Positions 19,319 through 19,368 are shown, counted from the stretch's first letter. The stretch: 64,000 nt of DNA from Methanothermococcus sp. Ax23 (GCF_049075655.1 NZ_CP157522.1:1024001-1088000), one strand, 5' to 3'. Numbers and translations are program-made. Notes: generated by a model not told the origin, from the sequence alone.

Positions 19319-19368
19319 TCGCTTACGAAGTAAGTGAGTAACGAAATCACGAAGTGATTTCGTCTGAT
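19319..19368 (+). repeat. Double-hairpin micro-element in the nifH 5' leader
   Basis: TCGCTTACGAAGTAAGTGAGTAACGAAATCACGAAGTGATTTCGTCTGAT; related copies at 27264, 40232 (reverse), 51465 and partially 24246. Confidence 0.85.

What the first reader, a model, noticed from the sequence alone, without database searches (positions are those of the whole stretch)
19319..19368. A ~48-bp double-hairpin micro-element family with covarying stems, mobile without its own gene
Seen: copies at 19319, 27264, 40232 (minus) and 51465, with partial ones at 24246, 62981 and possibly 7266. They share a frame TCG-[stem1]-YGAGYAAYGAA-[stem2, mostly GAA loop]-TTCRTCTRAT while the stem sequences vary with full compensation (CTTAC/GTAAG, CTTGC/GCAAG, AAATC/GATTT; ATCAC/GTGAT, AACC/GGTT, TTCC/GGAA). 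Insertion is shown by clean reconstructed empty sites in tnpB, the family B right end and pantoate kinase. No consistent TSD. Established: GNA-triloop DNA hairpins are very stable; REP-type elements are processed by HUH enzymes; palindromic repeats with coding potential have been reported in Methanocaldococcus jannaschii. Inference: an archaeal REP-like system selected on structure, whose mobilising enzyme is unidentified. This copy lies in the nifH leader, between the NrpR operators and the RBS.
Basis: partly seen in the sequence, partly recalled or inferred. Interest (0 to 1): 0.8.

Follow-up and report, generated by a model that had tools for sequence, protein, structure and literature searches.

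The report
Tiny two-hairpin mobile DNA element
A stretch of about 48 DNA letters that folds into two hairpins and encodes nothing has spread to dozens of places in this methane-making archaeon and its relatives, even inside genes; small repeats of this general kind were already known, but what moves this one is not.

Summary
A covariance model built here finds 79 copies in this genome, at about 42 independent sites. It finds copies in 23 of 41 Methanococcales-type genomes and none in 7 of 7 genomes of one sister genus at E<=1e-4. Both stems covary, and Rfam has no matching family.

The element behaves as a discrete unit of 47-51 bases:
- Paralogous IS and MITE copies exist with and without it.
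- All 19 relatives' pantoate kinase loci fetched lack the 16-codon insert.
- The nifH-leader copy is shared only with the closest relative.
- No target duplication longer than 9 bases flanks any site.

New points:
- A pyrimidine before hairpin 2 covaries with a purine in the 3' tail (C/A 34, T/G 14, T/A 6, C/G 0).
- Loops are GAA far more often than TTC, although orientation to genes is mixed. This points to one DNA strand rather than RNA.
- The family co-occurs with TnpB (IS200/IS605) elements and is often nested in them.

Most likely it is a gene-less, structure-dependent single-strand DNA parasite moved in trans, perhaps by a Y1 HUH transposase. That enzyme survives here only as a 23-residue remnant. 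The enzyme is unproven. I file it as a new member of a known kind (REP, RPE and MJRE-type repeats).

The parts
19319..19368 (+). Full double-hairpin element in the nifH 5' leader, antisense to nifH and about 8 bases upstream of the GAGGTG ribosome-binding site
   Evidence: Sequence. R1 scores it 64.5 bits. DNA fold z -5.0. Present in G003 and absent in G012, G010, G013 and G015.
18445..19298 (-). nifH (starts [12 protein letters not shown]...), the gene whose leader carries the element
   Evidence: ORF list. The ATG at 19296-19298 was read from that translation.
19397..19443 (.). Two GGAA-N6-TTCC inverted repeats (19397-19410 and 19430-19443) upstream of the element, conserved in relatives
   Evidence: Sequence and alignment. 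Their identity as NrpR operators is recalled from Lie, Wood and Leigh 2005, a reference I saw only as a citation in PMC4902934.
24246..24298 (-). Variant copy: normal junction, stem 2 and tail, but a different first stem (TTTTCC...GGAAAA with an 11-base loop)
   Evidence: (nhmmer E 2e-6).
27264..27314 (+). Full element nested in the right end (guide-RNA region) of a ~380-base tnpB-derived MITE (about 27230-27609)
   Evidence: 23 of 39 such right ends carry it and 16 lack it precisely.
40232..40279 (-). Full element inside the pantoate kinase ORF (40104-40973, +), read through in frame as 16 extra residues
   Evidence: All 19 relatives' loci fetched lack the 16 residues. DNA empty site.
51464..51511 (+). 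Full element inside a tnpB gene (minus strand), which it frameshifts
   Evidence: Two paralogous IS copies lack it. Taking out 47 bases restores ...QKLQIAWQNYFKQ, which matches the intact TnpB of G024.
62981..63015 (-). Half element (junction, stem 2, tail) lying between two 38-base direct repeats that are themselves hairpins
   Evidence: by eye. Not found by R1.

Best explanation
This is a family of gene-less mobile DNA elements of 47-51 bases. Each is two tandem hairpins joined by a conserved GA-GYA junction and closed by a CTRAT tail. The element goes in and out of DNA as one exact unit, with no target duplication beyond at most one T.

Only copies that keep the two hairpins and the junction-tail contact give rise to new copies. 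That would explain why the stems covary while the unpaired letters stay fixed.

The form that is recognised is most likely one particular DNA strand folded into hairpins, not an RNA. The enzyme is supplied in trans. My best candidate is a Y1 HUH single-strand transposase of the IS200/IS605 kind. In that reading, hairpin 2 with the letters before and after it works like an IS608 right end, with a guide 5' of the hairpin foot pairing to the cleavage site 3' of it.

The elements also ride inside IS200/IS605 copies and their MITEs, which multiplies them and probably carries them between genomes.

Inserted copies have side effects. They add 16 in-frame residues to proteins, supply new C-termini and stop codons, break tnpB, and add two hairpins to the nifH leader.

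Shown: the element is discrete, polymorphic and structure-constrained. Inferred: the single-strand DNA intermediate. Guessed: the HUH enzyme.
For: Discrete unit:
- Right ends of the IS/MITE family are filled in 23 and precisely empty in 16 of 39 copies.
- 7 IS copies carry the tnpB insert and 2 lack it, a net difference of 47 bases. The restored frame matches an intact TnpB.
- All 19 relatives' pantoate kinase loci fetched lack the 16 codons.
- A TPP-enzyme gene has an in-frame insert that the 90%-identical G003 orthologue lacks.
- No flanking repeat is longer than 9 bases at the 42 sites.

Structure:
- Stems covary.
- Junction Y against tail R in 54 distinct copies from 6 genomes is C/A 34, T/G 14, T/A 6, C/G 0. 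None of 20000 shuffles reaches this.
- The orthologous nifH-leader copies of G000 and G003 differ at three positions, and two of them are exactly this pair.

Strand:
- Stem-2 loops are GAA 25 against TTC 4, and stem-1 loops are GAA 17 against TTC 2.
- Yet orientation to genes is 11 sense and 20 antisense (binomial p 0.15). An RNA would therefore carry UUC loops in most cases.

Link to IS200/IS605:
- 16 of 19 genomes with TnpB have the element, against 7 of 22 without TnpB. Six of those 7 have only 1-3 hits (Fisher p 0.0013, kin not independent).
- All 6 Methanococcales genomes with a Y1 gene or remnant have at least 12 copies.
- At least 9 of the 42 sites lie in IS200/IS605-family elements or their MITEs (my hand count); a further copy lies in a DDE transposase gene.
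- All 3 left ends of a second IS family carry a different variant at a different position.

Recent movement:
- An identical 48-mer sits at two unrelated sites in G015, which has an intact Y1 gene.
- Identical 48-mers occur at non-homologous sites in other genera.
Against: - This genome has no Y1 transposase. Only a 23-residue C-terminal remnant sits beside a decayed tnpB. Yet two insertions (pantoate kinase, TPP enzyme) are younger than the split from G003.
- G013 and G017 have 41 and 38 copies and no Y1 gene.
- The ends of the one intact tnpA-tnpB IS examined (G024) do not match the model; the best hit is 11 bits. Its left-end hairpin is a different, GC-rich one.
- No conserved 4-5-base target precedes the element. 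Only a T is constant.
- Hairpin 1 starts at the very boundary, which leaves no room for an IS608-type left guide.
- There is no orientation bias between the two halves of the chromosome defined by GC skew: about 7+/6- and 11+/11-. IS200/IS605 elements are expected, from recall, to prefer the lagging-strand template.
- Presence and absence at the IS right end are scattered over the tree of copies. The tree needs 11 changes, at least 4 of them forced, which is no better than shuffled labels (203 of 500). Gene conversion between IS copies could produce this without any element-specific enzyme.
- G.T and A.C mismatches in the stems are about equal (22 against 19), so the stems themselves show no strand preference.
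Confidence: 0.5

Rival explanations
1. It is mobile, but by something other than a Y1 HUH transposase. Candidates are an unrecognised structure-specific nuclease or recombinase, or passive spread by homologous recombination and gene conversion between copies together with hitch-hiking in IS elements.
For: - No Y1 gene in G000, G013 or G017 despite 38-69 copies.
- No target motif and no replichore bias.
- The filled or empty state is scattered on the IS tree, as gene conversion would give.
- Most identical copies are nested in larger repeats.
- In G015 three of seven copies of a tandem pair break off inside the loop of the second element's stem 2, which points to hairpin-directed breakage.
Against: - Insertions into unique genes (pantoate kinase, TPP enzyme) have no homologous template around them, so conversion alone cannot place them.
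- No candidate enzyme was found. I ran no systematic phyletic scan.
- The junction-tail covariation resembles the guide and cleavage-site logic of HUH transposases (recalled).
Confidence: 0.25
2. The hairpins are kept by the host for a function of their own, as an RNA or DNA structural signal (for example transcript stabiliser, terminator or protein-binding site), and mobility is secondary.
For: - Orthologous copies stay intact between G000 and G003. The nifH-leader copy has a two-sided change at the covarying pair, and the copy at C1:38500 looks unchanged between the two genomes across the element.
- At two orthologous sites G012 seems to keep only decayed remnants. This suggests maintenance in some lineages.
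- Copies often sit at gene ends or in a 5' leader.
Against: - Both orientations to transcription occur (11 sense, 20 antisense) despite a strong GAA-over-TTC loop bias.
- Copies lie inside ORFs, inside tnpB and inside other IS.
- Seven genomes of a sister genus have none.
- No Rfam family matches, even at E<=1.
Confidence: 0.12
3. The copies are detached pieces of IS200/IS605 right ends, that is of the TnpB guide-RNA scaffold, rather than an element in their own right.
For: - A second TnpB family (C1:199747-200997 and two more copies) carries a related two-hairpin module (junction GCT, tail TTAAC) at its right end in 3 of 3 copies, sense to tnpB. A similar module, with tail TCAAC, lies downstream of a tnpB near the Y1 (tnpA) remnant in G010 (coordinates).
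- The family co-occurs with TnpB.
Against: - In the other IS family the module is present or absent at one exact site and is antisense to tnpB.
- Solo copies of 47-51 bases have unrelated flanks on both sides.
- Three different variants sit at three different positions in the left ends of the same IS family. That is insertion, not descent from an end.
Confidence: 0.13

Closest known systems
MJRE1-3, palindromic repetitive elements of Methanocaldococcus jannaschii (Suyama, Lathe and Bork, FEBS Lett 2005). I recall the abstract and saw the paper cited in PMC2229807 and PMC2996958 (passages). The paper itself is not held.
   Same: Small hairpin-forming repeats in the same order of archaea. They are mostly between genes, a few lie in frame inside protein genes, and they have no gene of their own.
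   Different: From the recalled abstract, 141 elements total 14.3 kb, or about 100 bases each, against 47-51 here. I could not compare sequences, so identity with one MJRE group is neither shown nor excluded.
REP/BIME and REPIN elements with their RAYT (TnpA-REP) Y1 transposases in bacteria. Recalled; the REPIN paper PMC3116915 was seen only as a search listing.
   Same: Short dispersed hairpins kept by structure, with no gene of their own, thought to be moved through single-strand DNA by an HUH enzyme, and forming mosaics and arrays. Hairpin arrays occur here at C1:560100-560460 and 364940-365260.
   Different: This genome has no RAYT or Y1 gene. There is no conserved 5' GTAG. The element is two unlike hairpins in tandem rather than an inverted pair. 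Copies occur inside ORFs. The host is archaeal.
IS200/IS605 insertion sequences and their short derivatives (PATEs); IS608 'peel and paste' transposition (recalled)
   Same: Hairpins near the ends and no target duplication. Letters just 5' of a hairpin covary with letters 3' of it near the end, like the IS608 guide and cleavage site. The family co-occurs with, and nests in, such IS.
   Different: About 48 bases in all. No conserved target tetranucleotide. Hairpin 1 lies at the extreme left boundary. The hairpins are unlike those of the intact IS examined. No replichore bias.
Rickettsia palindromic elements (RPE) and the small dispersed repeats (SDR) of cyanobacteria. Recalled; RPE is mentioned in PMC2996958.
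   Same: RPE: in-frame insertion into housekeeping genes at loop or linker positions. SDR: very small hairpin units with compensatory changes, nested in other mobile elements, mover unknown.
   Different: RPEs are bacterial and about 100-150 bases. SDRs are 21-27 bases with one hairpin. Neither has the two-hairpin frame seen here.

Membership tests
REP/RAYT system | A RAYT (Y1 HUH, Pfam PF01797) gene in the genome, typically flanked by the repeats | tested here: not met
   PF01797 gives 0 matches in G000, with controls positive. tblastn with the G024 TnpA finds only a 23-residue remnant at C1:947365-947430.
REP/RAYT system | A conserved 5' GTAG tetranucleotide followed by one imperfect palindrome (recalled definition) | tested here: not met
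   The copies start TC and consist of two different hairpins plus a CTRAT tail.
IS200/IS605-derived short element (PATE) | End hairpins like those of a full-length IS that encodes TnpA | tested here: inconclusive
   Not met for the intact tnpA-tnpB IS of G024: best R1 hit 11 bits at E 0.6, and a different left-end hairpin. A related module does sit at the right end of a second TnpB family.
IS200/IS605-derived short element (PATE) | Insertion without target duplication | tested here: met
   Empty sites differ from filled sites by the element alone, with one T ambiguous. No flanking repeat is above control level.
IS200/IS605-derived short element (PATE) | Insertion 3' of a fixed 4-5-base target, and orientation bias to the lagging-strand template (recalled) | tested here: not met
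   The flanks of the 42 sites share no motif beyond T-richness. Orientation is balanced in both GC-skew halves (the origin is inferred from skew only).
MJRE repeats of Methanocaldococcus jannaschii | Dispersed palindromic repeats in Methanococcales, some in frame inside protein genes | tested here: met
   23 of 41 genomes. In-frame copies in pantoate kinase and a TPP enzyme.
MJRE repeats of Methanocaldococcus jannaschii | Sequence match to the MJRE1, 2 or 3 consensus | not testable with these tools
   The paper is not held and no open paper found gives the sequences.
Any described RNA family (Rfam 15) | A covariance-model match | tested here: not met
   No gathering-level hit in the window. 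Nothing on the element at E<=1.

The most novel reading that the evidence does not exclude
The element is the smallest working 'peel and paste' transposon. In about 48 bases it carries only what a single-strand HUH enzyme needs: two hairpins and a guide that pairs, through a wobble-type C.A or T.G contact, with its own cleavage site. Alternatively it is moved by an enzyme class not yet linked to transposition in archaea. Its T.G / C.A covariation would then be a readable record of how end recognition evolves, and the nifH-leader copy would be a natural case of such an element being retained in the leader of a regulated operon.
Probability: 0.2. Interest if true: 0.75.

Novelty: new member of a known kind. 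Interest (0 to 1): 0.5.

Why it matters
Short structured repeats are common in bacteria, but in archaea they are barely described and their movers are unknown. This family gives a clean, testable case. It has exact boundaries from real empty sites, a compact covariance model that separates carrier genomes from non-carriers, and a junction-tail covariation that predicts which letters an enzyme reads. It also has a short list of genomes with and without an intact Y1 transposase in which activity could be compared.

It matters for annotation too. The element adds 16 residues to housekeeping enzymes, supplies stop codons, breaks tnpB and interrupts TnpB guide-RNA regions. It also lengthens the nifH leader by two stable hairpins just upstream of the ribosome-binding site, which could change nitrogenase expression in the two species that carry it.

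Tried and rejected
- Archaeal bulge-helix-bulge intron. The ends of the element cannot pair to make the central helix (by eye), and the tnpB copies are simply frameshifted. Rejected.
- C/D-box or K-turn RNA. The tail contains CUGA in one subfamily, but the C-box-like letters are paired inside stem 2. Not pursued.
- CRISPR repeat. Copies are not regularly spaced. Rejected.
- Long target duplications of 20-80 bases, reported in earlier notes of this scan for M. jannaschii repeats. None at the 42 sites. Only the half copy at 62981 lies between 38-base repeats.
- Strand of selection from G.T against A.C mismatches in the stems. The count is 22 against 19, which is uninformative, and the alignment is fitted to the model.
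- Small contig C2 (7.7 kb) as a source of a rolling-circle Rep. From the ORF translations alone (not scanned against Pfam), its large ORFs look like a big replication-type protein with an NTP-binding motif. No strict or loose regex match lies on C2 and R1 lists no hit there (ORFs).
- Viral contigs. The strict pattern for the commonest subfamily finds 0 matches. Other subfamilies were not scanned.
- Wider taxonomy. The 'phylum' scope returned the same 40 genomes, so nothing outside this group was searched except one outgroup genome, which had 0 hits.
- Strain-level polymorphism and expression. Neither question was addressed.
- MJRE comparison. The paper is not held. Searches for 'palindromic repetitive' + 'Methanocaldococcus jannaschii' + 'coding potential', for 'MJRE' or 'jannaschii' and for 'Methanococcus' / 'MITE' / 'hairpin' / 'repetitive element' found no open description of this element.

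Full report
WHAT IS THERE

Each reads 5'-TC[stem 1, about 8 bp, loop 3-4]GA-GYA-[AYGAAAnnn-loop-nnnTTTCRT]-CTRAT-3' and is 48-51 bases long. As single-stranded DNA all four fold into exactly two hairpins on either strand, with z -4.3 to -7.0 against 200 shuffles each. The flagged copy (19319-19368) lies antisense in the nifH leader. It sits between two GGAA-N6-TTCC inverted repeats (19397-19410 and 19430-19443) and the GAGGTG ribosome-binding site; nifH starts at 19298 on the minus strand. That GGAA-N6-TTCC is the NrpR operator is my recollection. A review read in passages says only that NrpR binds the nif operators in the nif promoter region (PMC4902934).

HOW MANY, AND IS IT CHANCE

The window's genome (1.66 Mb plus a 7.7-kb contig) holds 40 matches to a strict regex and 60 to a looser one. 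I aligned 21 distinct well-formed copies (A2) and built a covariance model, R1, with 16 base pairs.

- R1 finds 79 copies at E<=0.01 in this genome.
- It finds copies in 23 of 41 related genomes at E<=0.001. By genus: own genus 4 of 12, g2 1 of 1, g4 2 of 2, g5 (the other family) 14 of 17, g3 1 of 7 with a single weak hit, and the outgroup 0 of 1.
- At E<=1e-4 it is 21 of 40, and 0 of 7 in g3. These AT-rich genomes of similar size serve as a negative control.
- Rfam has nothing on the element at gathering level or at E<=1.

Clustering the 79 hits by their flanks gives about 42 independent sites. The rest are copies multiplied inside larger repeats: 23 in one MITE/IS right end, 7 and 3 in tnpB, and so on.

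STRUCTURE IS WHAT IS CONSERVED

On 38 distinct copies, helix 2 is 96.7% paired and 6 of its 8 pairs change on both sides. The covariation score is 0.421, against 0.185 for shuffles (0 of 500 reach it) and at most 0.115 for slid partners. Helix 1 scores lower there (66.8%) because variants with other stem-1 architectures are misaligned.

The pyrimidine in the GYA junction just 5' of hairpin 2 goes with the purine in the CTRAT tail.

- Counts in 54 distinct copies: C with A 34, T with G 14, T with A 6, C with G 0.
- None of 20000 shuffles reaches this. Fisher p is 1e-8, without correction for relatedness.
- The link is tighter than the link of either letter to the neighbouring stem pair.
- The orthologous nifH-leader copies of this genome and of G003 differ at three positions in 50. 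One turns A-T into G.T in stem 1. The other two are exactly junction C/T and tail A/G.
- T.G and C.A are both wobble-type pairs. A second subfamily has junction GCT with tail T(T/C)AAT.

IT BEHAVES AS A DISCRETE INSERT

(i) The right end of a tnpB-bearing IS and of its ~380-base MITE (window 27230-27609) occurs 39 times. 23 copies carry the same 51-base element at one spot. 16 lack it, reading GGGTTC+TTTAG (7), +TTTTAG (6) or variants.

(ii) Seven full-length IS copies carry the element inside tnpB, and two paralogues lack it. The net difference is 47 bases, one less than the 48 from TC to AT, with a T on either side. Removing it restores ...CQKLQIAWQNYFKQHTKRPRYQPKDG. This matches ...LQKLKIAWLNCFKQHTKRPRFQPKNG of an intact 392-residue TnpB next to a 143-residue Y1 TnpA in G024. 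A diverged tnpB carries another variant 25 bases away, and three IS copies carry a third variant 440 bases away.

(iii) Pantoate kinase reads through the element as 16 extra residues. All 19 relatives' loci fetched lack exactly these, including G003 at 89% identity. The DNA empty site is GGA|GAT.

(iv) A TPP-dependent enzyme (C1:65262-66836) has an antisense copy in the linker between its middle and C-terminal domains, read in the same frame as in pantoate kinase (...DE..R.SLL...). The 90%-identical G003 orthologue lacks 12 residues there in the tblastn alignment. The linker varies in length, so the exact empty site is not defined.

(v) The nifH-leader copy is present in this genome and in G003 (region 94% identical) and absent in G010, G013 and G015. 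G012 has only a short stretch resembling the tail.

(vi) Of three further intergenic sites, one is shared, apparently unchanged across the element, with G003. One is absent from G003 and G012, in a region too diverged to fix the boundaries. One looks decayed in G012.

No direct repeat longer than 9 bases flanks any of the 42 sites, the same as the maximum over 200 random control positions.

WHICH MOLECULE

Gene calls here are crude: the longest ORFs, 1604 in all. With them, 18 sites lie in or overlap ORFs (12 antisense, 6 sense). 13 lie between co-directional genes (8 antisense, 5 sense). 11 lie between convergent or divergent genes. Overall that is 20 antisense to 11 sense, p 0.15, so there is no fixed orientation to transcription.

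Yet in the orientation defined by junction and tail, the loops are strongly one-sided. Stem 2 has GAA 25 against TTC 4 of 58 parsed. Stem 1 has GAA 17 against TTC 2 of 44 parsed. An RNA-level constraint would not give this with mixed orientation. A constraint on one DNA strand would. That C-GAA-G triloops are unusually stable in DNA is recalled, not tested. Mismatches in the stems (G.T 22, A.C 19) show no strand preference.

WHAT MOVES IT

This genome has no Y1 HUH transposase (PF01797: 0 hits, controls positive). Only a 23-residue C-terminal remnant lies next to a decayed tnpB.

Among the 41 genomes, Y1 is intact in G015, G024, G032 and the outgroup, and broken in G003, G010 and G029. All six Methanococcales genomes among these have at least 12 element copies. 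However, G000, G013 and G017 have 38-69 copies and no Y1.

TnpB (PF07282) tracks the element better.

- 16 of 19 TnpB-positive genomes have the element.
- 7 of 22 TnpB-negative genomes have it, six of them with 1-3 hits and one a fragmented assembly.
- 15 of the 22 have none (Fisher p 0.0013; kin are not independent).

The element is often nested in these IS. It occurs in the right end of one family, at three sites in tnpB, and in all three left ends of a second family. In that second family each copy carries a different variant at a different position around the left-end hairpin. A related module also sits at that family's right end in all 3 copies. A similar module lies downstream of a tnpB near the Y1 remnant in G010.

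Against a simple link:
- The ends of the intact G024 IS do not match R1, and its left hairpin is a different GC-rich one.
- The flanks show no fixed target.
- Orientation is balanced in both halves of the chromosome defined by the GC-skew extremes at about 170 and 820 kb.
- On a tree of 37 right-end copies the filled or empty state needs 11 changes (at least 4 forced) and is no more clustered than shuffled labels (203 of 500). I dropped 4 of the 41 regex hits before building the tree: two false hits, one truncated copy and one diverged copy. This pattern means repeated precise gain or loss at one site, or gene conversion between IS copies. I cannot tell which.

Signs of recent movement:
- In G015, which has an intact Y1, an identical 48-mer lies at two unrelated sites. 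The other identical copies there are nested in larger repeats.
- Identical 48-mers occur at non-homologous sites in G000 and G031 (a different family) and in G000 and G017 (a different genus).

VERDICT

This is a real family of tiny, gene-less, structure-constrained mobile elements of Methanococcales. I put that at about 0.85. A single-strand DNA intermediate is likely. A Y1 HUH transposase acting in trans, now lost from this genome, is my best guess at about 0.35-0.4. It would make the junction, hairpin 2 and tail an IS608-like right end.

The family belongs with REP/BIME, RPE, SDR and MJRE-type repeats. It fails the membership tests for REP/RAYT. Whether it equals one of the MJRE groups published in 2005 could not be checked, because the paper is not held.

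Earlier notes of this scan describe similar hairpin repeats in related genomes. Their long target duplications do not apply to this family.

Noticed in passing
window 62940-63060: A half element (junction GTA, stem 2, tail CTGAT) lies between two identical 38-base direct repeats that are themselves hairpins, just upstream of an ORF starting MAKYQCM. It is the only case here that resembles the long target duplications noted earlier in this scan for M. jannaschii repeats.
   Followed up: partly
window 27230-27609; genome-wide list: A ~380-base MITE made of the left and right ends of a tnpB-only IS. 39 right ends of this IS/MITE family are in the genome. Those carrying the micro-element (23) outnumber those without it (16).
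   Followed up: yes
G000 C1:1141773-1141857: A copy consisting only of the terminal 35 bases of the IS right end plus the element. Homology stops exactly at the element's 3' end (CTAAT|), which suggests breakage or joining at that boundary.
   Followed up: no
G000 C1:199560-199700, 336330-336460 and 1308420-1308520: The left ends of three copies of a second TnpB IS family each carry a different variant of the element at a different position around the left-end hairpin, all in the same orientation. This is a local hot spot for insertion.
   Followed up: partly
L114-L120 (G015): A tandem pair of elements 7 bases apart is repeated seven times. In three copies the homology breaks off inside the loop of the second element's stem 2.
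   Followed up: no
G000 C1:947365-947430: A 23-residue remnant of the C-terminus of a Y1 TnpA (70% identical to the G024 protein, E 0.002) lies next to a diverged tnpB. It is the only trace of that transposase in this genome.
   Followed up: yes
G000 C1:560100-560460 and 364940-365260: Intergenic arrays of many abutting hairpin modules of the stem-2 type (A-Y-R-AAA...TTT-Y-R-T), recalling the mosaic BIME clusters of enterobacteria.
   Followed up: no
G000 C1:1276528-1276575 and L108 1501-1548 (G031): An identical 48-base copy in two families of the order, at unrelated sites. In both it supplies the last residues and the stop codon (...LDEITL*) of the ORF it overlaps.
   Followed up: partly
L079 1501-1985 and L089 1501-1985 (G017): Two identical copies in direct orientation 437 bases apart, and the whole unit is present twice. 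The element sequence is identical to the tnpB-nested copy of this window, but the surrounding DNA is unrelated.
   Followed up: partly
G000 C2 (7.7-kb contig, L071): A plasmid-like contig whose two ends encode the same peptide stretch, so it is probably circular with an assembly overlap. It carries a large replication-type ORF and no copy of the element.
   Followed up: no
G000 C1:280858-281886: A DDE-type transposase gene (PF01609) also carries a copy, with an unusually long stem 2 (14 bp), in the sense orientation.
   Followed up: no
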